From Candidatus Latescibacterota bacterium (GTDB lineage: Bacteria; Latescibacterota; UBA2968; GCA-2709665): DNA of 64,000 nucleotides. The notes under the pieces are model-generated. The model made no database searches and was not told where the DNA came from. It saw only the letters and a program-made list of their open reading frames with translations. The stretch is taken from assembly GCA_965219995.1 (NCBI GenBank), contig CBDCOX010000002.1, positions 4,256,001 to 4,320,000 of the forward strand, given 5' to 3'. This document shows, in pieces, positions 2,569 through 54,023 of this stretch; position 1 is the stretch's first letter; each line of letters begins with the position of its first letter. Both the position numbers and the translations under genes were made by a program.

Positions 2569-4719
2569 CTAGCTATTTCCAAACGCGCCTGCAAAGATCA
2601 GAAAATCGCTGAACCCGATGGCGCCGTTGCCATCCAGGTCGTACCGCGCGTCGTACCCCTCGTCGGCCTCCTTCAACCCAAATGTTCCCGCGAACTGTAC
2701 GAAATCCCCGAATCCCACGGTCCCGTCGCCGTCGAAATCGGGATCGGGGGTTGAGGGACGCGTCCCCGTCCACTTCGATACGTCCCACAGCCGGACCTGA
2801 CCGTCGTCGGACCCGGAGGCCAGCATGCTCCCGTCGGGTGAAAACGACACCGAATTGACGGCGCTCGCGTGACCGAGAGTGACCACGTGTTTTCCGGTAA
2901 GGGCGTCCCACAACCGGACCGTCAAATCCCACGACGCCGAGGCCAGCGTGGATCCATCGGGCGAGAACGCCACCGACTTGACGGTGGTACGATGTCCTTT
3001 CAAGTCAGCGATCTCCCTGCGCGTGGTCGCGTCCCAGAGCTTGAGCATATCCAGGCGCGGACTGAATGCTGACCCGGACGCAAGGGTGGCGCCATCGGGA
3101 GAAAACGACACCGAGTAAACCTCGTACAGATGTCCTTCCAGGCTACCTACCTGGGTCTGTGCGGCGACGTCCCACAGCCGGATCGTTCGATCCCACGACG
3201 CGGAGGCCAGGGCGCGGCCGTTCGGCGAAAACGCCAGTGCGTCGACCTGATCCGAATGCCCTTCCAGCATAGCGACCTGGGTGTCTTTGGCCAGATCCCA
3301 CAGCCGGATCGTTCGATCCCGCCACGCGACGGCCACCGTGCCGCCGTCCGGCGAAAACGCCGCAGAGCGGCCCATTATGAATTCGGAAACCTCAGTGCGG
3401 GTTGTCACGTTCCACAGTCTAACCCCGCGGTCCCACGACGAGGTGGCCAGCGTGCCGCCGTCGGGCGAAAACGCCAGGGATCTGAACCCGCCATCCTCTC
3501 GCCCTCCCAGCGTGCCAACGTGTCCTCGGGTCGCGACGTTCCAAAGCATTACTCTGCTGTCTTCAATACCTCCTGCGGAAGCCACATGGGTACCGTCGGG
3601 GGAGAACGACACCGACGTCACCCCGTGGGTATGCCCTTCCCAGGCGGCAATCAGGTACGGCGAGGCTTCCTCGTACACGAAGTATGTACCGTTCGCGTCT
3701 CCCCTGGTGTCAACGACACTGACGCCGATGCCATGAGCGGGTCCATCAGGCAGACTCCTGAAGCCATCGAACGAGCTATAAGCGCCTTCAAACTCGAACG
3801 AAACGACGGCATATTTCTTCCCTCCGATCGATCGACACGCCACGATACCGCTTAAGCTGTTTAGTATGACTTGATGAAGACCGTCAGGGTCGCTGAGTTC
3901 GACCTGGACGGTGACGCTCGTCGAGCCTGCCGGGTACCGGGTTGGCGACAACAGTCGGATGCCGGGCGCCGATACCTCTTCCAATGGAATATCGGGATTG
4001 AAGTACGGATGCACGGCAAGGAGTTCCGCGGAGCACGCAGACAGCGCGCTTCCAATGGAACCATAGGACATGATATGCTTTTTGTCCCTGAAGTCGTGCC
4101 ACAAGCTGAAGGCATGGCCCAGTTCATGCGCGACGGTTGAGTACTCGAATCCTCCAGGTACCAGCACCCAGCCCCCACGCTTGCCCAGATCGCCCCCCAA
4201 TCCCATTGCCCGGCCGGCGGCATTGCTGCTATTGTCGGTGATTATCAGATACACGTTCGCGGAGAGATCGAATTCACGTTCAACATCGAAGATCTCTTCG
4301 GTATTCGACAAATAGTGCGCATCGGGATGATCCGCGTCCACGCGATGCACGAGGGGTTCGCCTCGCGCGTCTGTCTCGACGCGAAAGGTCCGATTGCCGT
4401 AGCCATGCGCCAGCATCTGCTCCCCGAAGAACGTCTGAATCCGCTTGATCACCGTCTTCATCGAATCGACGACTTCCTGCCGAAAGGGGCGATCGTTGGG
4501 CAGGAAGTAAATCATCCGCACGGTTCGCGGTTCGCCCACGTTGAGGTCCGCCGCCCGTTTGCCGGCCGGGAGGGGGTGCTCCCGCCGCCACTGCTCATGA
4601 CCGACCCCGCAGAATAGCACGTGGTCGGACGCAGACGTGGACGCGGAAACTCCTGTCACCGGTGTGAGCAGGAGAAACAGCACAATTGGTAAAACAGAAC
4701 CGCAAAGGTTGGCTATCAT
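2569..4719 (-). CDS. Secreted zincin-like metalloprotease / WD40 propeller / C-terminal dockerin-like protein
   Basis: Start reassigned to ATG 4719 (AGGGAG upstream, signal peptide follows); HELGHAFSLWH zinc motif; about 7 WD40 repeats (AFSPDG..LAS.SWD.TIRLWD); twin DFDGDGTVGFGDF / DLDGNGAIGFSDF Ca loops. Confidence 0.88.
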   Translation of the reverse strand: MIANLCGSVLPIVLFLLLTPVTGVSASTSASDHVLFCGVGHEQWRREHPLPAGKRAADLNVGEPRTVRMIYFLPNDRPFRQEVVDSMKTVIKRIQTFFGEQMLAHGYGNRTFRVETDARGEPLVHRVDADHPDAHYLSNTEEIFDVEREFDLSANVYLIITDNSSNAAGRAMGLGGDLGKRGGWVLVPGGFEYSTVAHELGHAFSLWHDFRDKKHIMSYGSIGSALSACSAELLAVHPYFNPDIPLEEVSAPGIRLLSPTRYPAGSTSVTVQVELSDPDGLHQVILNSLSGIVACRSIGGKKYAVVSFEFEGAYSSFDGFRSLPDGPAHGIGVSVVDTRGDANGTYFVYEEASPYLIAAWEGHTHGVTSVSFSPDGTHVASAGGIEDSRVMLWNVATRGHVGTLGGREDGGFRSLAFSPDGGTLATSSWDRGVRLWNVTTRTEVSEFIMGRSAAFSPDGGTVAVAWRDRTIRLWDLAKDTQVAMLEGHSDQVDALAFSPNGRALASASWDRTIRLWDVAAQTQVGSLEGHLYEVYSVSFSPDGATLASGSAFSPRLDMLKLWDATTRREIADLKGHRTTVKSVAFSPDGSTLASASWDLTVRLWDALTGKHVVTLGHASAVNSVSFSPDGSMLASGSDDGQVRLWDVSKWTGTRPSTPDPDFDGDGTVGFGDFVQFAGTFGLKEADEGYDARYDLDGNGAIGFSDFLIFAGAFGNS

Positions 4720-9733: not shown

Positions 9734-12700
9734 TCAGTCATCGATGGTGAGGATGACGTTCCCCTGCTCATCACCAACGTAGATCGGCCCGAGGGCTGCG
9801 ACTCCTTCGGGTGTCACGTGACTGGCGACCGGCTTCGCGCTTGCCGTGGGGGGCGTTATGGCTCCCACCGTGGCAGGCAGCCTGTACCGATCGGCATGGT
9901 TGGCGTCAACAATGTAGCCGAGATCGGCAAACGACTGAATGGTGATCCCGCTGAGCGCATGCTCCTGCTCTACCGTCGGCTCCATTATTTCGGCCCCGAA
10001 TTGGCGGTCCAGGCCTCTAAACACATACGGATTCCAATGGCTGCCCGCGCCGCAGCTTGAAAACAAGCGAGATTCCACCGGGACCTTGTTCCCAACGTAA
10101 GTCTCGCCGCCGGCGGCATCGAACGCCTGAACGGCCAGTTCACCACTGAAATATGCGTCTCCCGACAGTTCATGAACCAGGCCGAACGTCTGCCAGAGTA
10201 CACCGAATCCCAGAACATGCGCTATTTCGTGCAGCATCAGGTCGCGCACCTGTCTTTCCTCGTGCCAGAGCGACGACGTACCCTCACGCCGGGCAAGGAA
10301 TTTCGAAGCAATATGGACTCTGCCAAGTGCTGGCAGGCCGATCGGGTTGCCCGACCGCACATAGTCCGGTCCCCCCCGTCCCGCGTATTGTCCGTCATGG
10401 GATTTCAGGACAAAGATCCGCAGGTCGTCCACAACATCCCCGATCTCCCGGGTGACGCGGCCGCCGTCGGCAACGAAATCAAAGCGATTGGACGAGAAAT
10501 CCACGTCTGGCAGGCCCTGTGTAATGATGGCCTCGAAGCGCCTCGCCGCCTGCTGCATCAGATCCATGCGCGCGTCCGTAAAATCGTCCACGAACACGAG
10601 TTCGATATTGAAGGGGTCCGCCCCGGCAGGGACAACACGGACGTACAAGCCGGCGGAGCAGTTGTTATCGGTATCCGTCTCGCCAAGCACGCCATCCACA
10701 CATGCGCCATAGTAGTAAGTCCCCGGACTGGATGGGGCGTTCAACCGGATTGTTGCCCTGCTTGCAGCGAAAGTGGCGCGGCGTCTACCGGGTTCGAGGT
10801 TGGGTCCGAGGACCAGGCCGTCAATACCCGCAAGGCCTCTTATCGTGCCTGTGGCGACCTGCGTGTCGGAGGCATCGATGGTGGCGTCGTCCGAGCGGTA
10901 GTAACGCACCGCAGTCGCGCCAGATGCGGCGGGTCCCTCGTTTCTCACTGCCGCCGTGAACGTGAATGGCTGTCCCGCCAACGGGTTGCTCGTACTGACC
11001 CAGGCCGGACCGAAAGCCAGATCCGGAACGCCGACGTTCAGGGACACTGCCTCCGAGCAATTGTTGTTCGTATCGGTTTCCCCGGAAACGGGATCGACAC
11101 AAACTCCATAGTAATACGTGCTCGGATTTTTTGGCATCTCAAACCAACCGAAAACAGGGGGGCTCCCATTTGGACCGAGGAGCCCCACGCCGTTGGTCGA
11201 GACTTGCGTGTCTGAGGCTTCGATGACGGCGTCGTCCGACCGGTAAAACCGCGCGACCGTCTCGTCGGCGGTACCGTCACCTGCATTCAGGACGTAAGCA
11301 AGCAGATCGATTTCCCGCGCGGTTCGGTCGATCTCTCTTAGCACGAGTCCTCGAATGATCAGGTCCGGGTTTCCTCTGTCTTCGACAATCAGGCGCGTGC
11401 CAACGGAGCAGTTGTTTTCGGTATTGGTCTCGCCGGGGACGGGATCGACACAGACCCCCAGATAGTACGTGCCCGCCTCGTCCGGGCTTGGCATCGTATG
11501 GCCACTGCGGAATTGATACGTTGGGTCTCGAGGGGGTACAGCAAAGACTCCCAATTGAAATTGAAGCGACCTGTCTGTGGCGTCTATGGTCGTGTCGTCC
11601 GAGATGTACCTGCGCCCCGACGTCGCGGCAGCCGGGCCGGTACCGACGTTCTCAATCCTTGCGCTCCACGTAATGCCACTGCCAGGCGTGACATTATCGG
11701 GGATCAGAGTTGAAGGGTGGACGATTAGGTCCGGGCTGCCCTCATGGCTGCCGTCAACGGTGACAGGGACGCCCATCGAGCAGTAGTAGGTTAGCCTCCC
11801 TCCCACCTCCACGCAGACCCCGTAGTAATACGTTCCCGCGTACGCCGGGGCTGCCCAGTCAAGCACTGCCGTGGTGTCTGCTGAACCGCCCAACCAGGGC
11901 TCGGTAAACAGATAACCCCAATGGATGAGCGCGTCGCTTGAGTCTATAGATGCATCGGGCGATCGGTAGTAATTGATTCTCTGTGTTAATCCATCGGCCC
12001 GTGGTTTCTGTACGTTCGTCTCCATCGTGAAGGCCTGCCCCGCGTTCAGCCTGGTCTCGCTGACCTTGAATGAACGAAAGACAAGTTGATCCCCTTCGCT
12101 TCCTTCCGTCCCGACGACGGTAACAGGGCCGCCGGCTCCGGATGACGGCGCCGTTTTGCCGAAGTTCTCTGCGAACGCCAGGAAATCCGACAGGTCGATG
12201 CTGCCGTCATTGTCGAAATCTCCCCGCGCGTCGTAGCCGGCCTCCCCCTTTGACGTGCCGAACATGCGCGCAAAGGCGAGAAAATCCGACAGATCCACAC
12301 TCCCGTCGTTGTTGAAATCACCCGCGTTGCCACCGGCCGCAAACGTGATCTCAGCGGCGCCCACGGCCAGCTGATCCACGTCACGTCCGCTGGTCATCTC
12401 CATGCGTTTCACCACAAGCTTCGCGCCGGCATCCAGCTCGCGTGTCACCGATACGCTCACTTGACCCAGATATCCCGACGAAGGTACCGTAGCTCCCGAA
12501 ATGAACAGCGCCGATAGGGTGGCTGTACCCCGCACGATCAGGACGTTGCCGTTCCAGTCCACGCCCGATACCGTTCCGACGTGGTTTGCAAGGGTCTTGC
12601 CCGGCACGTCCAGTTCCAACGTGTACCCGTTCGTGGCGTTCCCCCCTCCGGCAGGCGCGAACAGTTGGAAGCGGATCGTGTCTCCCGCCTTCGGTGCCGG

Positions 12701-12859
12701 AAGCGTCTTCGCGTTGTTGTTCGTCGCCGGCGTCTCGATCTGCGTATCCACGTGCAGGGCCACCCCCGAGAACACCCCGAGCAACTTCATCGCGTACGCA
12801 GGCGCGCACAGCAATACCGCGAGGAACACCCACGGTCCGATGCGTCTGTATATGGACAT
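9734..12859 (-). CDS. Secreted cohesin-like / dockerin-like / 4x CARDB-like / leishmanolysin(M8)-like metalloprotease
   Basis: Signal peptide; about 150-aa beta-sandwich; twin GDFNNDGSVDLSDF loops; PDL..YY.S.D..ID..D..GTYYYG.CVD..ET.T.NNCS units; FNIEL.F..DDLRI..HEIAHVLGFG..GSHW..EIM..SGITIQSFADLGY. Confidence 0.88.
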   Translation of the reverse strand: MSIYRRIGPWVFLAVLLCAPAYAMKLLGVFSGVALHVDTQIETPATNNNAKTLPAPKAGDTIRFQLFAPAGGGNATNGYTLELDVPGKTLANHVGTVSGVDWNGNVLIVRGTATLSALFISGATVPSSGYLGQVSVSVTRELDAGAKLVVKRMEMTSGRDVDQLAVGAAEITFAAGGNAGDFNNDGSVDLSDFLAFARMFGTSKGEAGYDARGDFDNDGSIDLSDFLAFAENFGKTAPSSGAGGPVTVVGTEGSEGDQLVFRSFKVSETRLNAGQAFTMETNVQKPRADGLTQRINYYRSPDASIDSSDALIHWGYLFTEPWLGGSADTTAVLDWAAPAYAGTYYYGVCVEVGGRLTYYCSMGVPVTVDGSHEGSPDLIVHPSTLIPDNVTPGSGITWSARIENVGTGPAAATSGRRYISDDTTIDATDRSLQFQLGVFAVPPRDPTYQFRSGHTMPSPDEAGTYYLGVCVDPVPGETNTENNCSVGTRLIVEDRGNPDLIIRGLVLREIDRTAREIDLLAYVLNAGDGTADETVARFYRSDDAVIEASDTQVSTNGVGLLGPNGSPPVFGWFEMPKNPSTYYYGVCVDPVSGETDTNNNCSEAVSLNVGVPDLAFGPAWVSTSNPLAGQPFTFTAAVRNEGPAASGATAVRYYRSDDATIDASDTQVATGTIRGLAGIDGLVLGPNLEPGRRRATFAASRATIRLNAPSSPGTYYYGACVDGVLGETDTDNNCSAGLYVRVVPAGADPFNIELVFVDDFTDARMDLMQQAARRFEAIITQGLPDVDFSSNRFDFVADGGRVTREIGDVVDDLRIFVLKSHDGQYAGRGGPDYVRSGNPIGLPALGRVHIASKFLARREGTSSLWHEERQVRDLMLHEIAHVLGFGVLWQTFGLVHELSGDAYFSGELAVQAFDAAGGETYVGNKVPVESRLFSSCGAGSHWNPYVFRGLDRQFGAEIMEPTVEQEHALSGITIQSFADLGYIVDANHADRYRLPATVGAITPPTASAKPVASHVTPEGVAALGPIYVGDEQGNVILTIDD

Positions 12860-19356: not shown

Positions 19357-19379
19357 GTGAACTCTCCTATGTGTCTTTA

Positions 19380-43789: not shown

Positions 43790-44055
43790 CACCTGTCCCC
43801 ATGCGTCCGCAAAGAGGAGCAAGTCGGCAAAATAGGTCCGTCCATCGCCGTCGAAATCGCCAGGGCACGCCGCTGCTTGCGTAAACGACAGCTTTGCGAC
43901 ACCCACCCCCAAGCGCGTCCACGTCGCGTCCGCTGGTCATCTCCATGCGCTTCGACGCCGAGAAATCGCCGCCTCATATCCGAAACAAGCAGATCCCGCT
44001 GGCCACGACACGGACTGACGTGTACCGTCCGTCCCACGTCGTGGTGAACGATCAC
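43790..44055 (-). pseudogene. Chimeric relic: CTD end fused to cohesin-like/dockerin-like fragment
   Basis: GDFSASKRM|EMTSGRDVDAL..VAKLSFTQAAACPGDFDGDGRTYFADLLLFADAWG. Confidence 0.8.
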
Positions 44056-44201: not shown

Positions 44202-46157
44202 TCAAGGCACGGCGGTGATTCGATAATCATTGCCCGAACGGGTGCCCTGCAATCCGTTCAGGTTGAAGCCCGAGCTGCAGAATCTTCCCGTACCGAAGGC
44301 CGTAAACTGATAGCACCCCCCACCGATATTGATAAACTCCGCACGACCCACGGAACACCTTTGATTCGGCTTCACCACCATTCCTACCGTGCACGCACCC
44401 AGGTTGTTGCCGCTACCACCGCCGCCACTGCCGGCGCTAAAGCCCGCGTGAACCGTATAGCTGCCGGTGGTCTGGTCGTCGTACCCTTTCACTTCGACGT
44501 AGTAAGTGCCGGAACTCACGGTGCGTTCGATGCTGAAATTGCCACCGCTGCCACTGTCGTCATCGCTGTCCAGAGACGTGCCCGAATCGTCATACAACGT
44601 GCCATACGTATCGGTGCTACCTGTTGAGTAGACCGTCAACGTACCGGCGCCGCCAACCTGTACACTGAAGTAATCCACGTCGCCGCCGGTCTCGATACGT
44701 CCCGAACTCGAATTGCCCGGAGACAGGCTCGTCGCGTCCGAACGGCTATTGCCGTGGTCATCGGAGCCGCCCTCGCCAGGCATTGTCGTGGTACCCTCAA
44801 CAATCGTGGACCACGTATCCGGAGAGCCGGTATTGCAGGAAGAGGAGTTCCGGTACCGATAACGCATCTCGTAGGTTGTGTTCGGCTCACGACCGGAAAT
44901 GAACGCGATATAGTATTGCGTAACGGTGTTGTTTGATGCGTTCCGCGGCTCCAGGCACCCTTCTATCCAGCTTCCTTGAGGCGTCTTTCGCCGAATCTGT
45001 ATGTCATAGGCTCGAGTTTCTCCGGCGCGCCATGTATCCAGAATGCCGAAATAAAGCGAATCGGCAGTTGCACGCGCAAAGACCGGGTCGCTCAGATCGG
45101 AAAGACGCCAATTTACTTCGTCAGCCGTAATTCCGTCGTCACACGTCAAGCTGAGGTCGCCCGTAGTCGAGGAGTTAAAGGTCAATTGCATCACACAGCG
45201 TCCACCGTACTCTCCCTGGTCATATTCCTGCGTCACTGTGCCGGTATTCGTACCGGTATTCGTATATGTGTAGCTACCGGGCAATCTGCCGACGTCTTCG
45301 GTGAATCGTCCTGCAGACACAAAATCGACAAAATAGAACCTTGTCACCAAACGATTGCCAACAACAAGACTGTTGAAGGCTGACTGATCTGCCGGGGCAA
45401 TGCCCGCCGGCGTTCCGCCCTGACCGCCACCCCCGCCGCCAACGGGATAGGTCGCGCCGAACGTAATCGCAAACGCCAGGAAGTCCGACAGGTTGATGCT
45501 GCCGTCATTGTCGAAGTCTCCCCGCGCGTCGTAGCCGGCCTCCCCCGACGAAGTGCCGAACATGCTCGCAAAGGCCAGGAAATCCGACAGATCCACATTC
45601 CCGTCGTTGTTGAAATCTCCCGCGTTGCCGCCGGCCGCAAACGTGATCTCAGCGGCGCCCACGGCCAGTTGATCCACGTCGCGTCCGCTGGTCATCTCCA
45701 TACGTTTCACCACAAGCTTCGCGCCGGCATCCAGCTCGCGCGTTACGGTTACGTTCACCTGGCCCAGATATCCCGACGAAGGTACCGTCGCTCCCGAAAT
45801 GAACAGCGCCGACAGCGTGGCTGCGCCGCGGCCGATCAGCGCGTTGCCGTTCCAGTCCACGCCCGATACCGTTCCTACGTGGTTTGCAAGGGTCTTGCCC
45901 GGCACGTCCAGTTCCAACGTGTACCCGTTCGTGGTATTCCCCCCGCCGGCAGGCGCGAAAAGCTGGAAGCGGATCGTGTCTCCCGCCTTCGGTACCGGAA
46001 GCGTCTTCGCGTTGTTGTTCGTCGCCGGTGTCTCGATCTGCGTATCCACGTGCAGTGCCGCACCCGAGAACACCCCGAGCAACTTCATCGCGTACGCAGG
46101 CGCGCACAGCAATACCGCCAGAAACACCCACGGTCCGATGCGTTTGAAGATCGACAT
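44202..46157 (-). CDS. Secreted cohesin-like / dockerin-like / beta domain / FN3-like / PPC-like / Cys-rich terminal module protein
   Basis: N-terminal ~235 aa nearly identical to 9734; DDHGN....AT..GRIE..GDVDYF..DDDSG..NF.I..GTYYV.V.GY; terminal module shared with 17221. Confidence 0.88.
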   Translation of the reverse strand: MSIFKRIGPWVFLAVLLCAPAYAMKLLGVFSGAALHVDTQIETPATNNNAKTLPVPKAGDTIRFQLFAPAGGGNTTNGYTLELDVPGKTLANHVGTVSGVDWNGNALIGRGAATLSALFISGATVPSSGYLGQVNVTVTRELDAGAKLVVKRMEMTSGRDVDQLAVGAAEITFAAGGNAGDFNNDGNVDLSDFLAFASMFGTSSGEAGYDARGDFDNDGSINLSDFLAFAITFGATYPVGGGGGGQGGTPAGIAPADQSAFNSLVVGNRLVTRFYFVDFVSAGRFTEDVGRLPGSYTYTNTGTNTGTVTQEYDQGEYGGRCVMQLTFNSSTTGDLSLTCDDGITADEVNWRLSDLSDPVFARATADSLYFGILDTWRAGETRAYDIQIRRKTPQGSWIEGCLEPRNASNNTVTQYYIAFISGREPNTTYEMRYRYRNSSSCNTGSPDTWSTIVEGTTTMPGEGGSDDHGNSRSDATSLSPGNSSSGRIETGGDVDYFSVQVGGAGTLTVYSTGSTDTYGTLYDDSGTSLDSDDDSGSGGNFSIERTVSSGTYYVEVKGYDDQTTGSYTVHAGFSAGSGGGGSGNNLGACTVGMVVKPNQRCSVGRAEFINIGGGCYQFTAFGTGRFCSSGFNLNGLQGTRSGNDYRITAVP

Positions 46158-46216
46158 ACTATCCTCCCTCAAGAGTACTCATCTGTTGGTACGGATACAT
46201 CACTACCCGTACCCGA

Positions 46217-47026
46217 TTATTTCAACAGCAACATGCGCTTCGACGCCGAGAAATCGCCGGCTCGCATCCGATACACGTACACGCCGCTGGCCACGACGCG
46301 GCCAAACGCGTCCCTCCCGTCCCACGTGGCCGTATACGTACCGGCCTGCAGCGTTTCGTTCACCAGAACCCGCACCTCCTGACCCAGCAGATTGTACACG
46401 GCCAACCGCACGTACCCCTCCTCCGGCAGCCGATAGCCGATTTCTGTCGACGGATTGAACGGATTCGGCGCACACTGATCCAGGACGTATTGGTCCGGCA
46501 GCGGCTTCAGGTCGGCGACCTCGACGTGCGACAACCGGTCCACAGCGCCGTCCACACCGACCAATACGCCTTCCGAAATCACGAAATCCGACGCCGGCGC
46601 GCCACCGATGGCTCTGAAGACCAACTCAACGAGCGCGCCCTCGCCGCTGCCGCCCTCGCCGTCGACTCTGGCGGCGGCAACTGTCAGCTCTCCAGGCGTC
46701 CGATCCGACGTGAGAAACAACGGCTCCTGACGAGCGCCCGAATCGAGCAGGTTGCCGGCTGGTTCTACGGCCTTGAGAAACGCATACCCCGAAGGATCGT
46801 ACTCGAGCCTCAGGCCGTATCCCTTCAACTGCCTCACCTGCGACAGCGAAACACGCAACGTCAGCGTCCCGGCATCGGCAGCCGGATCGCTTATCCGCTC
46901 CACCTTCAGACGCGCCAACGCGTTCTGCCCGCCCGTGATGGTCAGTCCGCGCATCAAGTCTCCCGCCCTTGCCGCGCCTGTCAACACAAACACCGCACCA
47001 ACGGTCGAAATTACCCGAACGAACAT
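46217..47026 (-). CDS. Cohesin-like domain + FlgD-like/T9SS-type CTD adaptor, copy 2
   Basis: Same length (269 aa) and colinear with 28714-29523. Confidence 0.85.
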   Translation of the reverse strand: MFVRVISTVGAVFVLTGAARAGDLMRGLTITGGQNALARLKVERISDPAADAGTLTLRVSLSQVRQLKGYGLRLEYDPSGYAFLKAVEPAGNLLDSGARQEPLFLTSDRTPGELTVAAARVDGEGGSGEGALVELVFRAIGGAPASDFVISEGVLVGVDGAVDRLSHVEVADLKPLPDQYVLDQCAPNPFNPSTEIGYRLPEEGYVRLAVYNLLGQEVRVLVNETLQAGTYTATWDGRDAFGRVVASGVYVYRMRAGDFSASKRMLLLK

Positions 47027-47170: not shown

Positions 47171-50100
47171 CTACCGCATATCCGCCACACCCTGGACATT
47201 GTTGCCGAGGACCGTCGCGTTCCAGCTGACTCTGCACCTGAGTGTATTTGCGCTCGTAGAGATGATCCCGGAGATCGTGTAACTTTTGGATTGACCGGCC
47301 GACAAAGAGCCAACCAAGCTAACGCCCACCAACCGGTCATTGGCATATCCGGTTAACCTTAAAACCGACACCGACCTGTTCGCTCGAACGGTGCCCCGCA
47401 TTGTGACCGTAACAAGACCACTTACAGAATTGCGTGTGCCCGAGCAACTCCCGGTTATCGTAACCGCATCGGTCGGAGTCGTGCCGCCACCGCCGCCGGA
47501 GGTGACCGTGACGCTTACGCCGGACGAACAGTTGTTGCCGGTATCGCCCTCGCCGCTGACGGCGTCCACACACGCACCGTAGTAAACCGTCCCCGCGCTT
47601 GACGGCGCGGTCAATCCGATCGACTCAGCGCTCGTCCCGGACGCATCCAGCGCCGCCACGGCGTCCGTGCCCACTTCGGTGTCGCTGTCGGAAATCGTTG
47701 CATCCGAAGAACGGTAATACCTCAGCGTCGTGGATCCTGCCGAAGCGTTGCCCTGATTGCGCGCCTTCGTGCTAAGCGTAAACGCCTGTCCGGTCGTCAG
47801 CGTGTTGTCGTCCACCGTCGGTGAATCGACAACCAGATCCGGACTGCCGCCGCCGCCAGATTGGTCGGAAATCGTGTATACATAGACTTTCTCTTCAGTC
47901 CAATCTATCACATAGAATCGGTTCTGAGCATAGGTGATGCCAGACTGAGCCCGGTTGCTGGGATCCAGATCGAAATCCGCGCCCGAAGCACGCTGACCGG
48001 AGGTCGTGTACGCGTAAACTTTGGCATCAATATGATCAACCACGTACAATCGGTTCTTGGCATAGGTAATACCCAACGCTTCCTCATTGCTGGCATCCAG
48101 ATCGAAGTCCGCGCCGGAAGCACGCTGACCGGAACTCGTGTACGCGTAAACTTTCTCATGTGCAGCGTCAACCACGTAGAATCGGTTATTGCCAAAAGTG
48201 ATCCCCAGCGGATCACCGTCGCCTTTATTCAGATCGAAGTCTGCACTGGAAACGCGCTGACCGGAACTCGTGTACGCGTAAACCTTTTCATCCACATAGT
48301 CCACCACGTACAATCGGTTGTTGGCAAAGGTGATACCACCCGGGTAATCATTGTTGGTATCCAGATCGAAGCCTTCACTGGAAAGACGTTGCCCGGAACT
48401 TGCGTATGCATGGACCTTGGCACTCACTCTATAGACCACATAGAATCGGTTGTTGGCATACGTGATGCCCTCTAGTTGACCGTTGGTATTTTCCAGATCG
48501 AAGGACGTGCTTGTCGGGGGCGTTCCGCCGCCGCCCGCCCCCATGCGAAGCTCCATCACGTAGATATCAGTGTCTCTGTCACGGTCACGATTGGAAAGGA
48601 AGGCGATCTGCCGGCCGTCGGGAGACCACGCGTGATTCCAGTCCCCGGCGTCGTTGTGTGTCAGTCTGCGGGAGTTGCTCCCATCGGCGTCCATCACGTA
48701 GATTTCCGAGTTGCCGTCACGACCGGAAAGGAAGGCGATCTGCCGGCCGTCGGGAGACCACACGGGAGACCAGTCACTACCGGCGTTGTGTGTCAGGTTG
48801 CGGGGGTTGCTCCCATCGGCGTCCATCACGTAGATTTCCCAGTTGCCGTCACGGTTGGATTGGAAGGCGATCTGCCGGCCGTCGGGAGACCAGGCGAGAA
48901 ACTCGTCGCGGCCGGCGTTGAGTGTCAGGTTGCGGGGGTTGCTCCCATCGGCGTCCATCACGTAGATTTCCCAGTTGCCGTCACGGTAGGATTGGAAGGC
49001 GATCTGTCGGCCGTCGGGAGACCACGCGAGTACCTGATCCCAGGCGGCGTTGTGTGTCAGGTTGCGGGGGTTGCTCCCTTCGGCGTCCATTACGTAGATT
49101 TCATAGTTGCCGTCACGGTAGGATTGGAAGGCGATGTGCCGGCCGTCGGGAGACCAGGCGGGAAACGCGTCGGAGGCGGCGTTGTGTGCCAGGTTGCGGG
49201 GGTTGCTCCCATCGGCGTCCATTACGTAGATTTCATAGTTGCCGTCACGTTCGGAATGGAAGGCGATGTGCCGGCCGTCGGGAGACCAGGCGGGAAACGC
49301 GTCGGAGGCGGCGTTGTGTGTCAGGTTGCGGGGGTTGCTCCCATCGGCGTCCATTACGTAGATTTCCGAGTTGCCGTCACGTTCGGAAACGAAGGCGATG
49401 TGCCGGCCGTCGGGAGACCAGGCGGGTAGATGGAGGACGGCGGCGGCGTTGTGTGTCAGCCTGCGTATCGTCCCCGCCGTCATACCACCGCCACCTCCCC
49501 CGCCAACGGGATAAGTCGCGCCGAACACCTCCACAAACGCCAGAAAGTCTGACAGGTTTATGCTGCCGTCGTTGTCGAAATCGCCGCGCACGTCGTAGTC
49601 AGCCTCCCCTGGCGACGTGCCGAACATGTTCGCAAAGGCCAGAAAATCCGACAGGTCCACACGCCCGTCGTTGTTGAAATCACCCGCGTTGCCACCGGCC
49701 GTAAACGTGACCTCAGCGGCGCCCACGGCCAGTTGATCCACGTCGCGTCCGCTGGTCACCTCCATGCGTTTCACCGTAAGCTTCGCGCCGGCATCCAGCT
49801 CGCGTGTCACCGATACGCTCACTTGACCCAGATATCCCGACGAAGGGACCGTCGCTCCGGAAATGAACAGCGCCGACAGGGTGGCTGTACCCCGCACGAT
49901 CAAGGCGTTGCCGTTCCAGTCCACGCCCGATACCGTTCCGACGTGGTTTGCAAGGGTCTTGCCCGGCACGTCCAGTTCCAACGTGTATCCGTTCGTGGTA
50001 TTCCCGCCGCCGGCAGGCGCGAACAGTTGGAAGCGGATCGTGTCTCCCGCCTTCGGTACCGGCAGCGTCTTCGCGTTGTTGTGCGTCGCCGGCGTCTCGA

Positions 50101-50221
50101 TTTGCGTATCCACGTGCAGGGCCACACCCGAGAACACCCCCAGAAATTTCATCGCGTACACGGGTGCGTACAGCAATACCGCCAGAAACACCCACGGTCC
50201 GATGCGTCTGTACATGCACAT
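47171..50221 (-). CDS. Secreted cohesin-like / dockerin-like / 7x PD40 (TolB-like) / NHL-like propeller / CARDB / terminal beta module protein
   Basis: Shared N-terminal cassette; 44-aa WSPDGR.IAF.S.RDGN.EIYVMDADGSNPRNLT repeats; FDLD..N....GIT.ANNR.YVVD....KVYAYTSSGQR repeats. Confidence 0.9.
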   Translation of the reverse strand: MCMYRRIGPWVFLAVLLYAPVYAMKFLGVFSGVALHVDTQIETPATHNNAKTLPVPKAGDTIRFQLFAPAGGGNTTNGYTLELDVPGKTLANHVGTVSGVDWNGNALIVRGTATLSALFISGATVPSSGYLGQVSVSVTRELDAGAKLTVKRMEVTSGRDVDQLAVGAAEVTFTAGGNAGDFNNDGRVDLSDFLAFANMFGTSPGEADYDVRGDFDNDGSINLSDFLAFVEVFGATYPVGGGGGGGMTAGTIRRLTHNAAAVLHLPAWSPDGRHIAFVSERDGNSEIYVMDADGSNPRNLTHNAASDAFPAWSPDGRHIAFHSERDGNYEIYVMDADGSNPRNLAHNAASDAFPAWSPDGRHIAFQSYRDGNYEIYVMDAEGSNPRNLTHNAAWDQVLAWSPDGRQIAFQSYRDGNWEIYVMDADGSNPRNLTLNAGRDEFLAWSPDGRQIAFQSNRDGNWEIYVMDADGSNPRNLTHNAGSDWSPVWSPDGRQIAFLSGRDGNSEIYVMDADGSNSRRLTHNDAGDWNHAWSPDGRQIAFLSNRDRDRDTDIYVMELRMGAGGGGTPPTSTSFDLENTNGQLEGITYANNRFYVVYRVSAKVHAYASSGQRLSSEGFDLDTNNDYPGGITFANNRLYVVDYVDEKVYAYTSSGQRVSSADFDLNKGDGDPLGITFGNNRFYVVDAAHEKVYAYTSSGQRASGADFDLDASNEEALGITYAKNRLYVVDHIDAKVYAYTTSGQRASGADFDLDPSNRAQSGITYAQNRFYVIDWTEEKVYVYTISDQSGGGGSPDLVVDSPTVDDNTLTTGQAFTLSTKARNQGNASAGSTTLRYYRSSDATISDSDTEVGTDAVAALDASGTSAESIGLTAPSSAGTVYYGACVDAVSGEGDTGNNCSSGVSVTVTSGGGGGTTPTDAVTITGSCSGTRNSVSGLVTVTMRGTVRANRSVSVLRLTGYANDRLVGVSLVGSLSAGQSKSYTISGIISTSANTLRCRVSWNATVLGNNVQGVADMR

Positions 50222-51508: not shown

Positions 51509-51524
51509 CCGGTGGGGAGACCGC

Positions 51525-54023
51525 TCAATCGGCAGTATGAATGGTCCAGGCGTTGCTTCCGCTGTTTTTCGAGGCATGGAAGTTCCATCGGACGCCGTTG
51601 ACGGTGGACCCCCTTGCGTCGATGCTGTTACCGGAGTTGTAAAACGCGATGGAACCCCTGCCGGAACTCGACACCGTAAATGTGTAGCCTTTGTAGGTAC
51701 ACCGTCCGCCGGGTCTGACGACCAGGCCGGCCGTGCAGGCTCCGCCACCACCGCCGCCGCTGGCGGTGACCGTGACGCTTACACCGGACGAACAATTGTT
51801 GCCTGTATTGCTCTCACCACTCACGGCGTCCACGCACGCGCCGTAGTAATACGTCCCCGCACTCGAGGGTGCGTTCAACCCGATCGACTCAGCGCTCGTC
51901 CCGGACGCATTCAGCGCCCCCACTGCGTCCGTGCCCACTTCCGTGTCGCTGTCGGAAATCGTCGTATTCGAAGACCGGTAATAGCGCAACGTCGTGGATC
52001 CTGCCGAAGCGTTGCCCTGATTGCGAACCGTGGCGCTAAGCGTAAAGGACTCCCCCGTCGTCAGCGACGCGTCGCTCACCGATGCCGCATCCGCAACCAG
52101 ATCCGGACTGTCACCGCCGCCGCCGCTGGCGCAGTTCACCACGCCGAACCTGTATTCAATACCCTGCAGCCATGCCTGAAACGCCGCGTCCGTCGGCGCG
52201 CACAGCCCCGACTCGTGTAGTTCCAGCGTTTCCAGGCTCGTGAGGCTGCCCAGCTCCGACGGAATAGGACCCGTCAACTGGTTGGCGCCAAGCAACAGCA
52301 CTTCCAGTTTCGTCACGCTGCCCAGCTCCGACGGAATCCGACCCGTCAACCGGTTGCCGGAAAGAGACAGCGCTTGCAGATTGGTGAGGCTTCCCAGCTC
52401 CGACGGAATCGGACCCGTCAACCGATTGCCGGAAAGAGACAGCACTCGCAGATTGGTGAGGCTGCCCAGCTCCGACGGAATCCGACCCGTCAACCGGTTG
52501 TTGGAAAGTTCCAGCTCTTCCAGTTTCGTCATGCTGCCCAACTTCCCCGGGATGCGACCCGTCAACCGGTTGTTCGGGAGATGCAGCCGTATTAACTTGG
52601 TGAGACTGCCGAGTTCTGCCGGCAAGGGCCCCGTCAATCCATTGCCGGAGACCGTACCGGTACTGGTAACGGGTTTATTCGAATCGTAAGTAAACAGCCG
52701 CAGATGGGTTACGCGGCCTGACGTGGCGGTCGTCACGCCGTACCACTCCCCCAAAGGCCTGTCGCTGAGCCAGTTGGTGCTGAACACCCAGTTCGGGCCG
52801 TCCGTCGCGTCGTACAGCGCCACCAGCGCGGCACGTTCGTCCAGGACGGCGCAGCTTACGGCGCTTTTTTCGTTACTGATCCGGTGTACCCACCAGGTCG
52901 CGAACGCCTCGTCCTCCGGCAGGCACAGCCCCGTGCCGTGGGCCAGCATATCTTCAAGATTGTCAAGCCTGGTGAATGAATCTGGAAACGGGCCGGAAAG
53001 ACCGGTATTGTTGTGAAGATTAAGCACTCGCAGGTTGGTGAGGCGGCCCAGTGCATCGGGGACGCTGCCCGACAACTGGTTGTCGTTCAACCTCAACTGC
53101 GTCAGGTTGGTGAGATTGCCAAGCGCGGAAGGAATACCCCCCGTGAGCCGGTTGCTGTTCAGGAACAGCGCCGTCAGGTTGGACAGGCTGCCCAGTTCGT
53201 CCGGAATAGCGCCCGTCAATTGGTTTCCGTAAAGAGACAGGTATTTCAGATTGGACAGGCTGCCCAGTTCCGCGGGGATATTCCCCGTGAGCCGGTTGCC
53301 GTTCAGGAACAGCGCCGTCAGGTTGGACAGGCTGCCCAATTCCCCCGGAATGGCGCCCGTCAATTGGTTTAGAGAGAGGGACAGGCTGGTCACATTGGAC
53401 AGGCTGCCCAACGCGGCCGGGATCGACCCTGTCAGACGATTGCCGACGTACGTGCCGGTGCCGTCCCCGATGCCGACGGTGTCGCCGTCGCTTGTTGCGA
53501 CGGCGTATAGCGCCAGCCTCGTCACCTGTCCGTCCACGTCCGTGGTCACGCCGTACCACTCGCCAAGGGGCCGGTTGCTCAGCCAGTTCGTATTGAAGCG
53601 CCAGTTGTCCCCATTCGTCGCGTTGTACAGCGCCACCAGCGCCTCGCGATCTTCCGATTGAGGAGGAGTGGGAGGCGACTCGCATTCTGTCCCGAACACC
53701 TCCACAAACGCCAGAAAATCCGTCAGGTTGATGCTGCCGTCGTTGTCGAAATCTCCCCGCGGGTCGTAGCCAGCCTCCCCCGACGACGTGCCGAACATGC
53801 TTGCTAACGCCGGAAAATCCGACAGATCCACACTCCCGTCGTTGTTGAAATCGCCAGGGCACACCGCTGCCTGCGTAAACGACAGTTCCTCGGGCGTCAT
53901 CTCCGCCACAGGCACAGCCTGCGCCAGCGCGTCTTCCGATTTCAGGATGCCTACGCCGCCGGGTTTCGCGATACCGAACAACACGAATCCCGCGAAGATG
54001 GTTGCAAGAGAATGATGGCGCAT
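51525..54023 (-). CDS. Secreted dockerin-like / two LRR blocks / CARDB / Cys terminal module protein lacking the cohesin-like domain
   Basis: Signal peptide paralogous to 17221; twin Ca loops; two (N-cap + 24-aa LRR + GLC.P C-cap) blocks. Confidence 0.9.
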   Translation of the reverse strand: MRHHSLATIFAGFVLFGIAKPGGVGILKSEDALAQAVPVAEMTPEELSFTQAAVCPGDFNNDGSVDLSDFPALASMFGTSSGEAGYDPRGDFDNDGSINLTDFLAFVEVFGTECESPPTPPQSEDREALVALYNATNGDNWRFNTNWLSNRPLGEWYGVTTDVDGQVTRLALYAVATSDGDTVGIGDGTGTYVGNRLTGSIPAALGSLSNVTSLSLSLNQLTGAIPGELGSLSNLTALFLNGNRLTGNIPAELGSLSNLKYLSLYGNQLTGAIPDELGSLSNLTALFLNSNRLTGGIPSALGNLTNLTQLRLNDNQLSGSVPDALGRLTNLRVLNLHNNTGLSGPFPDSFTRLDNLEDMLAHGTGLCLPEDEAFATWWVHRISNEKSAVSCAVLDERAALVALYDATDGPNWVFSTNWLSDRPLGEWYGVTTATSGRVTHLRLFTYDSNKPVTSTGTVSGNGLTGPLPAELGSLTKLIRLHLPNNRLTGRIPGKLGSMTKLEELELSNNRLTGRIPSELGSLTNLRVLSLSGNRLTGPIPSELGSLTNLQALSLSGNRLTGRIPSELGSVTKLEVLLLGANQLTGPIPSELGSLTSLETLELHESGLCAPTDAAFQAWLQGIEYRFGVVNCASGGGGDSPDLVADAASVSDASLTTGESFTLSATVRNQGNASAGSTTLRYYRSSNTTISDSDTEVGTDAVGALNASGTSAESIGLNAPSSAGTYYYGACVDAVSGESNTGNNCSSGVSVTVTASGGGGGGACTAGLVVRPGGRCTYKGYTFTVSSSGRGSIAFYNSGNSIDARGSTVNGVRWNFHASKNSGSNAWTIHTAD

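What the first reader, a model, noticed from the sequence alone, without database searches (positions are those of the whole stretch)
2569..54023. Candidate new system: non-cellulosomal cohesin-dockerin platform displaying eukaryote-like repeat proteins and proteases through CTD-tagged adaptors
Seen: ten intact secreted proteins (2569, 9734, 13067, 17221, 21519, 25214, 30458, 44202, 47171, 51525) carry a duplicated DxxxDG.V...DF..F...FG module, and none has a sorting CTD. Two 269-aa genes (28714, 46217) consist only of signal peptide, cohesin-like domain and FlgD-like/T9SS-type CTD. Each lies immediately upstream of a dockerin-like gene, as does a relic at 33.2 kb. No cargo is a glycoside hydrolase: they are WD40, LRR, YWTD, PD40, NHL-like, CARDB and Zn-proteases. 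Known: twin Ca-loop dockerins bind cohesins, and CTDs of this type route proteins to the surface in FCB-group bacteria. Inference: the adaptor exports or anchors interchangeable dockerin-tagged host-interaction modules, a cellulosome-like logic repurposed for symbiosis or defence.
Basis: partly seen in the sequence, partly recalled or inferred. Interest (0 to 1): 0.88.

Follow-up and report, generated by a model that had tools for sequence, protein, structure and literature searches.

The report
Cohesin-dockerin surface kit with T9SS-type anchors
An uncultured marine bacterium tags dozens of secreted animal-like repeat proteins and proteases with dockerin modules and makes small cohesin proteins bearing a surface-sorting tail, so it probably clips these proteins onto its surface the way cellulose-degrading bacteria clip on enzymes, although binding has not been shown.

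Summary

Three corrections:
- This is genome-wide, not an island: 84 dockerin frames, 5 small adaptors, and one 1711-aa dockerin-cohesin-CTD protein. It is also lineage-wide: the adaptor occurs in 41 of 41 genomes sampled from the order.
- The T9SS set is partial: SprA, a PorU-like sortase and PorV-like proteins are present, but no GldK/L/M/N or PorP was found. No secretin was found either.

Binding is untested; the single complex job gave no verdict.

The logic is not new. A CTD-anchored cohesin scaffold was proposed for Cloacimonadota, and Ruminococcus has dockerin-borne LRR proteins and peptidases.

New here are minimal single-cohesin anchors, cargo dominated by eukaryote-like repeats, cohesin-dockerin leader cassettes shuffled between genes, and possible piggy-back export. 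Verdict: new variant of a known kind.

The parts
2569..4788 (-). Signal peptide - WD40 propeller - C-terminal twin-loop dockerin (residues 684-739)
   Evidence: Pfam WD40 225.6 bits; dockerin segments
9734..12859 (-). Signal peptide - cohesin-fold module type B (about residues 24-175) - dockerin (179-238) - CARDB repeats - leishmanolysin-like HEIAH domain
13067..16570 (-). Signal peptide - WD40 propellers - C-terminal dockerin (1113-1167)
   Evidence: Pfam WD40 242 bits; dockerin segments
17221..19428 (-). Signal peptide (true start probably the Met at residue 25) - cohesin-fold module type B - dockerin (228-288) - LRR - CARDB - 67-aa tail shared with 44202
   Evidence: Pfam LRR_8, CARDB, Dockerin_1 18.7 bits; 47% identical to the 9734 module; shared tail 92.5% identical
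21519..25196 (-). Signal peptide - seven 321-nt Ig-like repeats - YWTD propeller - C-terminal dockerin (1175-1225)
   Evidence: Pfam Ldl_recept_b 179.7 bits; repeats D5; dockerin segments. Pfam Dockerin_1 not listed at E<=0.01
25214..28531 (-). Signal peptide - N-terminal module type A - dockerin (179-236) - CARDB - YWTD/NHL propellers; directly downstream of adaptor 28714
   Evidence: Pfam Dockerin_1 24.9, Ldl_recept_b 318 bits; the N-module hits Pfam Cohesin only at E 0.031
28714..29523 (-). Adaptor: signal peptide - single cohesin - T9SS type A CTD (269 aa)
   Evidence: TIGR04183 30.6 bits > 23; Pfam Cohesin 19.4 bits; 68% identical to 46217
30458..33178 (-). Signal peptide - dockerin (50-108) - CARDB repeats - leishmanolysin-like domain; equals 9734 without the N-terminal module
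   Evidence: Pfam Dockerin_1 28.4 bits; 77% identical to 9734 over 879 aa
33189..33305 (-). Relic: last 33-39 codons of an adaptor CTD, just upstream of 30458
   Evidence: tblastn, 64-79% identity
33805..34347 (-). Relic: signal peptide and first half of a type B module, then out of frame
   Evidence: Translation; profile hit 5.8e-28
43727..44051 (-). Relics: one dockerin segment (43727-43936) and a CTD tail (43944-44051)
44202..46172 (-). Signal peptide - cohesin-fold module type B - dockerin (184-243) - unknown region - PPC domain - shared 67-aa tail; 44 nt downstream of adaptor 46217
   Evidence: Pfam Dockerin_1 26.9, PPC 24.1 bits; first 244 aa 91% identical to 9734
46217..47026 (-). Adaptor: signal peptide - single cohesin (about 36-178) - T9SS type A CTD (178-269)
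47171..50221 (-). Signal peptide - cohesin-fold module type B - dockerin (179-238) - PD40 propellers - CARDB
   Evidence: Pfam PD40 251 bits, Dockerin_1 28.3 bits
50364..51228 (-). Relics between 51525 and 47171: piece of the shared tail (50364-50586), type B fragment (50624-50728), CTD tail (51109-51228)
51525..54023 (-). Signal peptide - dockerin (56-115) - LRR - CARDB
   Evidence: Pfam LRR_1 124.7, Dockerin_1 25.0 bits
7895..8141 (-). Relic: frameshifted adaptor-type CTD
   Evidence: tblastn in two frames, 54-75% identity; CTD profile hit
282..2084 (-). 600-aa secreted protein with a T9SS type A CTD and no dockerin: an ordinary CTD cargo beside the cluster
   Evidence: TIGR04183 25.6 bits > 23

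Best explanation
The window holds part of a genome-wide, non-cellulosomal cohesin-dockerin assembly system of an uncultured FCB-group bacterium. Its nearest named homologues come from MAGs labelled Gemmatimonadota or Latescibacterota.

PROPOSED MECHANISM.
1. All components enter the periplasm by Sec signal peptides. This was read by eye from the N-termini; no predictor was run.
2. The small adaptors (signal peptide - one cohesin - type A CTD) are taken through the SprA translocon. A PorU-like sortase then fixes them to the cell surface. This step is inferred from the family.
3. Proteins with a twin Ca-loop dockerin dock onto these cohesins. Their cargo is mostly eukaryote-like repeat modules (WD40, LRR, YWTD, PD40, NHL, CARDB arrays) plus some enzymes. 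This step is inferred and not shown.
4. A subset of dockerin proteins carries its own cohesin-fold module directly before the dockerin. These could act like adaptor scaffoldins and extend or branch the assembly. This step is inferred.
5. The locus evolves by duplication and cassette exchange. The signal-peptide/cohesin/dockerin leader is 88-91% identical between genes whose cargo is unrelated, and the region is littered with relics. This step is shown.
For: DOMAIN IDENTITIES (shown).
- Homology to a Pfam-positive cohesin: 34% identity, E 8e-17; profile hit 5.5e-19.
- Paralogue C2:2367012 passes Pfam Cohesin at 28.1 bits, and the 1711-aa frame at 44.1 bits.
- Dockerins: motif, Pfam, fold.
- CTD over the NCBIfam cut-off and PorU-CTD-like in fold.

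DIVISION OF LABOUR.
- 84 dockerin frames, 22 CTD frames, and only 1 frame with both.

EXPORT PARTS.
- SprA reaches 628 bits against a cut-off of 200.
- The PorU-like protein scores 300 bits and has its own CTD. It lies 3.3 kb upstream of a paralogous adaptor-dockerin cluster, also in two same-genus genomes.
- PorV-like proteins are present, best 102 bits.
- No secretin was found with PF00263 or TIGR02517, while the controls rang in 6 of 14 genomes. SprA is therefore the only recognised outer-membrane route for folded proteins.

LINKAGE.
- In this genome 4 of 5 small adaptors lie next to a dockerin gene.
- In 20 relatives (best adaptor hit of each genome, +-9 kb), 9 of 20 loci have dockerin frames.
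- In the adaptor tree, one clade (support 95/92) has a dockerin neighbour in 11 of 12 rows.

CONSERVATION.
- The adaptor cohesin occurs in 41 of 41 genomes sampled from the order.

COHESIN-FOLD LEADER.
- In 11 of 16 frames hit by the three module profiles, the module is directly followed by a dockerin.

MOSAICISM.
Against: - No binding evidence of any kind was obtained.
- The T9SS set is incomplete by the models tried. GldL, GldM, GldN, GldM_1st and PorP_SprF gave no match, and GldK matched only through its FGE-sulfatase part. For most of these searches the control genomes rang nowhere, so absence is not shown.
- PorU-like and PorV-like matches are below the curated cut-offs.
- 11 of the 20 relatives' adaptor loci have no dockerin gene within 9 kb.
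- The basal adaptor copy sits among hemA/hemC/hemD, anmK, pcm and mreB. In the tree only 1 of the 14 rows outside the expanded clade has a dockerin neighbour. Much of the synteny may therefore be co-duplication within one genus.
- Dockerin_1 is found in 101 of 121 genomes of the phylum sample. That includes families where this adaptor cohesin was not found: f8 5/5 against 0/5, f10 5/13 against 0/13, f13 3/3 against 0/3.
- The stoichiometry is lopsided: 84 dockerin frames against 6 frames with an adaptor-type cohesin.
- The leader module shows no significant sequence link to cohesin. hhalign gave E 0.02-0.45. Pfam Cohesin is not among the 25 listed of 36 families in 55 relatives.
- Dockerins that follow a leader module do not form a sequence class of their own: 9 label changes against 10.5 in shuffles.
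Confidence: 0.55

Rival explanations
1. Self-contained assembly. The dockerins bind the cohesin-fold modules carried by the dockerin proteins themselves, in cis as a clasp or in trans as head-to-tail chains. The 269-aa CTD proteins would then be unrelated surface proteins that merely share the fold.
For: - Five of the ten window proteins have a cohesin-fold module within 2-20 residues of the dockerin.
- The dyad also occurs at C-termini (C2:1264137, C2:2109967).
- Relatives have 2-9 tandem copies of the module (P0189, P0190, P0295, P0299).
- The 1711-aa frame also has a dockerin directly beside a cohesin.
Against: - Only 11 of 84 dockerin frames have such a module, so most dockerins would depend on a few partners.
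- Adaptors lie next to exactly these genes in 4 of 4 adjacent cases in this genome, which suggests a link rather than independence.
- The module family is narrow: 131 representatives in 1.84 billion.
Confidence: 0.2
2. The dockerin-like modules are not cohesin partners here. They are stand-alone Ca-binding or stabilising modules, or modules that bind host matrix, polysaccharide or the cell envelope. Dockerin-like modules are widespread in non-cellulolytic organisms (recalled from Peer et al. 2009, which I could not read).
For: - Dockerin_1 occurs in families of the phylum where the adaptor cohesin was not found.
- There are sub-threshold matches to EF-hand families and to NCBIfam 'GC-type dockerin domain-anchored protein' at 22-23.6 bits against a cut-off of 29.
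- Dockerins outnumber cohesins about 14 to 1.
Against: - Cohesin genes are conserved in every genome of the order and lie beside dockerin genes far more often than about 84 dockerin genes in a 5.4-Mb genome would give by chance.
- Dockerin and CTD are nearly exclusive, as expected if one replaces the other as the means of attachment.
- The dockerin model superposes on a cohesin-binding dockerin at rmsd 1.5 A.
Confidence: 0.15
3. The dockerin proteins are periplasmic, or are released by vesicles or lysis, and are never displayed. The cohesin-dockerin contact, if any, serves periplasmic assembly or quality control.
For: - Dockerin proteins have only Sec-type signal peptides and no CTD.
- No secretin was found.
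- No GldLM motor was found.
Against: - Cargo types (LRR, WD40, YWTD, fn3, cadherin-like, FG-GAP, S8 and M8-like proteases, heparinase-like lyases) are typical of extracellular interaction proteins.
- The cohesin partner carries a surface-sorting CTD.
Confidence: 0.1

Closest known systems
Cellulosome anchoring scaffoldins of Clostridium (Acetivibrio) thermocellum (SdbA, OlpB, Orf2p) and the type I/II cohesin-dockerin pairs
   Same: - A cell-surface-anchored protein with one or a few cohesins receives dockerin-bearing proteins.
- Many dockerins serve few cohesins.
- Proteins holding both cohesin and dockerin recall adaptor scaffoldins.
   Different: - The anchor is a T9SS type A CTD on a diderm cell, not SLH repeats on a Gram-positive wall (the SLH anchoring is recalled).
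- No multi-cohesin scaffoldin was found: 4 Pfam Cohesin hits in 4 separate frames.
- No glycoside hydrolase cargo in the window.
- No CBM was seen.
Cellulosome-like complex proposed for Candidatus Stygibacter (Cloacimonadota), PMC8542988 (abstract and passages read)
   Same: - An FCB-group bacterium.
- Signal-peptide proteins with dockerins, including S8 and C25 peptidases and a non-enzymatic halomucin-like protein.
- A cohesin protein with a conserved CTD, inferred to attach it to the cell's own surface.
- Entirely in silico, as here.
   Different: - There, one 3,755-aa scaffoldin carries tandem cohesins and CBM2/CBM3, and the cargo is centred on polymer degradation (GH18, GH57).
- Here there are five 269-aa single-cohesin adaptors, cargo dominated by eukaryote-like repeats, cohesin-dockerin leader dyads, and adaptor genes paired with dockerin genes.
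Non-cellulosomal cohesin-dockerin modules of Clostridium perfringens glycosidases/toxins (PDB 2vo8, 2jh2, 2w1n, 2o4e, 2ozn)
   Same: - They are the only cohesins reached by the adaptor profile by sequence, at E about 0.05.
- They are used outside cellulose degradation to assemble secreted host-directed proteins (function recalled).
   Different: - Gram-positive, with no surface-sorting CTD.
- The cargo is glycoside hydrolases.
- Only a few components rather than 84.
Dockerin-bearing LRR proteins, peptidases and serpins of Ruminococcus flavefaciens FD-1, PMC2930009 (passages and tables read)
   Same: Dockerins on non-carbohydrate cargo: 28 LRR modules, 16 peptidases and 3 serpins are tabulated. 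The dockerin stands before the cargo in some (SIGN-Doc-SERPIN).
   Different: There they are a minority within a true cellulosome of a Gram-positive fibre degrader. Here repeat proteins are the majority: at least 21 of 73 frames outside the window are WD40.
Archaeoglobus fulgidus non-cellulosomal cohesin (PDB 2xdh)
   Different: Archaeal, with no CTD, and only a handful of genes.

Membership tests
Cohesin (Pfam PF00963) | Score over Pfam's gathering cut-off (24.1 bits) for the two window adaptors themselves | tested here: not met
   Isolated domains score 19.4 and 21.1 bits. Whole proteins: 17.7 bits for 28714, and 46217 is not listed. The genome scan gives 19.1 bits for 28714.
Cohesin (Pfam PF00963) | Homology to proteins that do pass the Pfam model | tested here: met
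   - Paralogue C2:2367012 (64% identical over the cohesin domain) scores 28.1 bits.
- The 1711-aa frame scores 38-44 bits.
- 46217 aligns with that domain at 34% identity, E 8e-17.
- By my count, 23 of the 120 listed family members carry a precomputed PF00963 hit.
Cohesin (Pfam PF00963) | Nine-stranded beta-sandwich fold of solved cohesins | tested here: met
   [not shown]
Cohesin (Pfam PF00963) | Binds a dockerin | not testable with these tools
   This needs a binding assay or a reliable complex model; see Tried and rejected.
Dockerin type I (Pfam PF00404) | Two tandem ~22-residue segments, each a Ca-binding loop (D-x-[DN]-x-[DN]-G, acidic residue at position 12) followed by a helix | tested here: met
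   Present in all ten. The model has helices at 167-176 and 200-209.
Dockerin type I (Pfam PF00404) | Score over Pfam's cut-off (22.9 bits) | tested here: inconclusive
   Met in 6 of 10. 17221 scores 18.7. 21519 is not listed. 2569 and 13067 are not visible because their tables were cut.
Dockerin type I (Pfam PF00404) | Dockerin fold | tested here: met
   [not shown]
T9SS type A C-terminal sorting domain (NCBIfam TIGR04183) | Score over the curated cut-off (23 bits), at the extreme C-terminus | tested here: met
   [not shown]
Type IX secretion system | Core machinery present: SprA/Sov translocon, PorU sortase, PorV shuttle, GldK/L/M/N (PorK/L/M/N), PorP | tested here: inconclusive
   - SprA is over its cut-off.
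- The PorU-like protein scores 300 bits against 420.
- The best PorV-like match scores 102 bits against 250.
- GldL, GldM, GldN, GldM_1st and PorP_SprF gave no match, and GldK matched only through its FGE-sulfatase part.
- The models come from Bacteroidota, and the controls mostly rang nowhere.
Cellulosome | Scaffoldin with several cohesins | tested here: not met
   Pfam Cohesin gives 4 hits in 4 separate frames of this genome. My adaptor profile hits 6 frames with one full cohesin domain each; one of them, C2:3512300, shows an extra weak partial hit at E 0.0016.
Cellulosome | Dockerins mainly on glycoside hydrolases and other plant-cell-wall enzymes | tested here: not met
   - The window has no GH.
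- Outside the window, 21 of 73 frames are WD40.
- Among the other 43, the commonest families are FGE-sulfatase 6, HYDIN/VesB Ig 4, SGL 4, FG-GAP 3 and Heparinase II/III 3.
- Only 25 of 77 families were shown, so single GH genes are not excluded.

The most novel reading that the evidence does not exclude
Piggy-back secretion. The 269-aa cohesin-CTD proteins would be carriers as well as anchors. Dockerin-tagged proteins, which have a Sec signal peptide but no CTD, would bind a carrier in the periplasm. They would then be carried as folded complexes through the SprA translocon and end up tethered to the surface. A few CTD-bearing carriers would thus give about 80 interchangeable host-interaction proteins access to the only outer-membrane route this genome visibly has. 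Recombination of the conserved leader cassette onto new cargo would supply rapid surface variation in a symbiont.
Probability: 0.2. Interest if true: 0.85.

Novelty: new variant of a known kind. Interest (0 to 1): 0.6.

Why it matters
WHY IT MATTERS.
- Eukaryote-like repeat proteins (WD40, LRR, ankyrin, NHL, YWTD) are the best-known genomic signature of sponge and other animal symbionts. How they reach and stay at the host interface is largely unknown.
- If this reading is right, one lineage solves the problem with a plug-and-socket system. A handful of surface-sorted cohesins would receive about 80 dockerin-tagged proteins.
- That makes the question testable with a simple binding matrix and surface proteomics.
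- It would also extend cohesin-dockerin assembly from polymer degradation to host interaction in a diderm cell with a T9SS-type anchor.
- With no secretin found, it raises the possibility of hitch-hiker export through SprA.

HABITAT HINT. Pieces of this locus at 90-99% identity were laid in contigs of two runs labelled sponge metagenome and one labelled marine metagenome. This is only a weak hint of habitat.

PRACTICAL INTEREST. Orthogonal single-cohesin/dockerin pairs with a T9SS anchor could be useful for surface display in Bacteroidota-like hosts.

Tried and rejected
COMPLEX PREDICTION. The chains were the adaptor cohesin (A1 residues 22-178) and the dockerin of 9734 (A2 residues 153-218). 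Verdict: no answer (score 0.11, mark 0.32; controls not run). This is neither support nor evidence against binding.

EXPRESSION. No RNA holder was listed among 12 runs, so nothing can be said about expression. The laid contigs cannot show transcripts.

PROMOTER AND TERMINATOR SCANS of the two adaptor-dockerin junctions. There were 0 promoter-like sites. The 2 and 3 terminator-like sites are at chance level and none lies in the gaps. This is uninformative.

SEQUENCE LINK BETWEEN LEADER MODULES AND COHESIN.
- hhalign of the adaptor cohesin against types A, B and C gave E 0.10-0.45; B against C gave 0.019.
- Pfam on the isolated modules: type A hits Cohesin at E 0.031, type B has no hit, and the 17221 module hits only Big_1 at E 0.017.
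- Pfam on 55 distant or multi-copy relatives: Cohesin is not among the 25 listed of 36 families.
- One type C module hits Pfam Cohesin at 21.9 bits, E 6e-4.
- The A2 profile against PDB was swamped by LRR cargo.

IDEA THAT LEADER-ASSOCIATED DOCKERINS ARE A SEPARATE (TYPE II-LIKE) CLASS. Not supported: 9 label changes against 10.5 in shuffles, as low in 44 of 500 shuffles. The tree has only 67 columns.

X-MODULE IDEA. Foldseek's X-Doc chain hits had TM 0.34-0.36 and rmsd about 15. VIA then put cohesins on top, so I read the module as cohesin-fold rather than as an X-module.

LONGER FUSED FORMS OF THE ADAPTOR COHESIN. None was found at E<=1e-5 with the word-index search, which is weak evidence. 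The genome search does find weaker cohesin matches inside frames of about 1500-1800 aa.

PROTEASE DOMAIN. There was no PDB sequence match.

The search for related loci was dominated by the CTD and gave little on the cohesin.

LITERATURE. Nine searches were run. I found no held paper that links dockerins or cohesins to eukaryote-like proteins of sponge symbionts, Poribacteria, Latescibacteria or Gemmatimonadota. The library lacks most subscription journals, and supplements were closed, so domain tables of sponge-symbiont papers may list these Pfam families without my seeing them.

CLOSED OR UNAVAILABLE.
- Peer et al. 2009 is not held. I saw it only in reference lists, and what I say of it is recalled.

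Full report
WHAT IS THERE.

The window is G000:C2:4256001-4320000 of a 5.44-Mb genome in 2 contigs, 98.6% complete. Ten long minus-strand ORFs each carry a duplicated dockerin segment. A six-frame regex scan found 18 matches, all in frame in these ten ORFs, and the alignment shows both segments in every one.

Pfam Dockerin_1 passes its cut-off in 6 of the ten. It is below the cut-off in 17221 and not listed for 21519. It is not visible for the two WD40 proteins because their tables were cut.

Cargo is WD40, LRR, YWTD, PD40, NHL-like and CARDB. Two proteins have an HEIAH domain with only a sub-threshold leishmanolysin match. There is no glycoside hydrolase. None of the ten has a sorting CTD.

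THE ADAPTORS.

ORFs 28714-29523 and 46217-47026 (269 aa, 68% identical to each other) consist of a signal peptide, one domain and a tail. The tail passes NCBIfam's T9SS type A sorting-domain model at 30.6 and 31.0 bits against 23.

Pfam Cohesin is sub-threshold for both. Three other lines settle the point:
- A paralogue passes Pfam Cohesin at 28.1 bits, and a 1711-aa frame passes at 38-44 bits.
- 46217 aligns with the cohesin domain of that 1711-aa frame at 34% identity, E 8e-17.

Both adaptors sit 182 and 44 nt upstream of a dockerin gene. The relic at 33.2 kb is a CTD tail just upstream of 30458.

In five of the ten proteins the dockerin follows an N-terminal module of about 150 aa. There are three sequence types in the genome, which I call A, B and C.

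Sequence evidence for the module being a cohesin is weak:
- Type C scores 21.9 bits and type A reaches E 0.031 against Pfam Cohesin.
- hhalign is not significant.
- No Cohesin row is listed among the relatives.

I therefore call it a cohesin-fold module.

The module is tied to the dockerin. In 11 of the 16 frames hit by the three module profiles, a dockerin follows within about 20 residues. That includes two frames where the dyad is C-terminal.

The type B family is small, with 131 representatives in 1.84 billion. Some members have 2-9 tandem copies. The type B module plus dockerin forms a leader on at least 68 proteins. Their cargo varies: PD40, WD40, CARDB, LRR, FGE-sulfatase, subtilase, NHL, YWTD, vWA.

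SCALE.

A profile of the window's dockerins hits 87 stop-to-stop frames in the genome. Of these, 84 have a domain E below 1e-5: 11 in the window, counting one relic, and 73 elsewhere. The dockerin is C-terminal in 51 frames and elsewhere in 33.

The adaptor-type cohesin occurs in 6 frames. These are five small adaptors and one 1711-aa frame with dockerin, cohesin and CTD in a row. The CTD profile hits 22 frames, and only that one frame has both a dockerin and a CTD.

Of the 73 frames outside the window, 21 are WD40 proteins. Among the 43 frames that my BLAST probes left unclassified, the commonest Pfam families are:
- FGE-sulfatase 6
- HYDIN/VesB Ig 4
- SGL 4
- FG-GAP 3
- Heparinase II/III 3
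- fn3 2, NHL 2, Peptidase_S8 2

Only 25 of 77 families were shown.

So the cargo is mostly interaction modules, with a few enzymes. Some of those enzymes act on glycosaminoglycan-like substrates.

EXPORT MACHINERY.

- SprA is present, at 628 bits against a cut-off of 200.
- A 1922-aa PorU-like protein scores 300 bits against 420 and has its own type A CTD. It lies 3.3 kb upstream of the paralogous adaptor-dockerin cluster at C2:2342372-2367953, behind two response-regulator/AraC genes. Orthologues 83% identical stand at the same place in two same-genus genomes.
- PorV-like proteins are present, best 102 bits against 250.
- GldL, GldM, GldN, GldM_1st and PorP_SprF were not found. GldK matched only through its sulfatase-modifying part. 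The control genomes mostly did not ring either, so this does not show absence.
- No secretin was found with PF00263 or TIGR02517, although six control genomes rang.

The dockerin proteins therefore have no visible outer-membrane route of their own. That is the basis of the piggy-back reading.

LINKAGE AND CONSERVATION.

In this genome 4 of 5 adaptors lie next to a dockerin gene, and each of those genes has a leader module.

I examined 20 relatives, taking the best adaptor hit of each genome with 9 kb on each side. Nine loci have dockerin frames and eleven have none.

The adaptor tree explains this split. One clade, with support 95/92, holds 12 rows from two genera of the window's own family. 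In that clade 11 of 12 rows have a dockerin neighbour within 700 nt. Among the other 14 rows only one does.

The basal copy (C2:1100125) sits in a conserved housekeeping stretch with hemA, hemC, hemD/cobA, anmK, pcm and mreB. That stretch is shared across both families.

The adaptor cohesin is present in 41 of 41 genomes sampled from the order. In a phylum sample, strong stand-alone matches are confined to that order: f1 13/13 and f2 29/29. Elsewhere the matches are weaker and lie mostly inside frames of about 1500 aa.

Dockerin_1 is wider, at 101 of 121 genomes. That includes families without this cohesin.

The small adaptor thus looks like an order-level derivative of the cohesin-CTD end of larger proteins. 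Dockerins do not depend on it everywhere.

MOSAIC EVOLUTION.

- 9734, 44202 and 47171 share their first ~240-250 residues at 88-91% identity (86-91% at DNA level), and then diverge completely.
- 30458 is 9734 without the leader module (77% over 879 aa).
- 17221 and 44202 share their last 67 residues (92.5%).
- CARDB units are shared between otherwise different genes.
- Relics of CTD tails, leader modules, dockerins and tails lie at 7.9, 33.2-34.3, 43.7-44.1 and 50.4-51.2 kb.
- Several intergenic repeat families flank the genes.

This is a birth-and-death, cassette-swapping locus.

READING.

The domain identities are shown. The assembly is inferred.

I hold it most likely (0.55) that CTD-sorted single-cohesin proteins anchor dockerin-tagged interaction proteins at the surface. 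The cohesin-dockerin leader proteins would act as possible intermediates.

The rivals are:
- Assembly among the dockerin proteins' own cohesin-fold modules (0.2).
- Dockerins with another ligand (0.15).
- A periplasmic or released fate (0.1).

Negative or neutral results are listed in full in the Against line and Tried and rejected. The complex prediction gave no verdict.

COMPARISON WITH WHAT IS KNOWN.

The logic is that of anchoring scaffoldins. A CTD-anchored cohesin scaffold was proposed in silico for Ca. Stygibacter (PMC8542988, passages read). Non-carbohydrate dockerin cargo such as LRR proteins, peptidases and serpins is documented in R. flavefaciens (PMC2930009, passages read).

What I did not find in nine literature searches is this combination:
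- Minimal single-cohesin CTD anchors.
- A cargo set dominated by eukaryote-like repeat proteins.
- A cohesin-fold/dockerin leader cassette.
- Adaptor-dockerin gene pairs.

PMC7081726 (passages read) discusses eukaryote-like domains and signal peptides in PAUC34f and Latescibacteria. It mentions 'cellulosome-affiliated enzymes' only by citing Farag 2017, which I did not read.

I therefore file this as a new variant of a known kind and not as a cellulosome, because no multi-cohesin scaffoldin and no GH-centred cargo were found.

HABITAT.

Contig pieces 90-99% identical to 44.1-50.3 kb were laid from two runs labelled sponge metagenome and one labelled marine metagenome. One 833-nt contig bridges the adaptor-dockerin junction. 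This is a weak hint that the lineage lives with sponges.

Noticed in passing
window 37757-40136: An ankyrin-repeat gene (Ank_2 142 bits) ends in the first ~60 residues of an FGE-sulfatase domain. It is followed on the other strand by a fragment with only the group II intron maturase domain (GIIM 49.6 bits). It looks like a gene cut by an intron remnant.
   Followed up: partly
window 40916-42880: A secreted protein with at least 12 ankyrin repeats (Ank 260 bits), made of very regular 102-105-nt units. It has no dockerin and no CTD, so not every eukaryote-like protein here uses the dockerin tag.
   Followed up: partly
window 9434-9733, 20189-20488, 30158-30457; 16668-16967, 33372-33671 (97%), 51295-51594; 5043-5200 and five more copies: Several families of intergenic direct repeats (D14, D16, D17, D18, D20) flank the dockerin genes. 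They may be recombination substrates or small mobile elements. No analysis was done beyond the repeat list.
   Followed up: no
window 20508-21437: An outer-membrane beta-barrel protein (OMP_b-brl_2 52.5 bits; TDE1717-family 39 bits, below its cut-off) sits between dockerin genes.
   Followed up: no
window 58245-63983: A frame of at least 1912 aa (it runs off the window) with He_PIG, cadherin, fn3, Calx-beta and Big_9 domains. Its C-terminal ~250 residues have no Pfam hit and end in ...LLLFRNF, which is reminiscent of an outer-membrane barrel. It has no dockerin and no CTD.
   Followed up: no
window 55678-58065 and 5431-7143: A GAF-PAS-histidine kinase-receiver-Trans_reg_C hybrid regulator lies next to the cluster. 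Separately there is a predicted AAA-ATPase_like + PD-(D/E)XK (PDDEXK_9) protein.
   Followed up: no
G000:C2:3130271-3135403 (L144:9545-14677, minus strand): A 1711-aa frame with dockerin (1408-1457), Pfam-positive cohesin (1481-1601) and T9SS CTD in a row. Its first ~1400 residues have no Pfam hit at E<=0.01. Similar frames of about 1500-1800 aa with a cohesin match occur across the class. They may be the ancestor of the small adaptors.
   Followed up: partly
G000:C2:3563858-3569969 (L149): Five tandem frames of ~350 aa, each with an N-terminal dockerin. The rest of each frame matches the C-terminal (FGE-sulfatase-like) part of the GldK model.
   Followed up: partly
G000:C2:1776483-1790182 (L130): Six tandem frames of 700-736 aa, each with a C-terminal dockerin: another expanded dockerin gene array.
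   Followed up: no
whole genome G000: No secretin (PF00263, TIGR02517) was found in a 98.6%-complete genome, while the controls rang in 6 of 14 genomes. No type II secretion or type IV pilus outer-membrane channel is therefore visible.
   Followed up: partly
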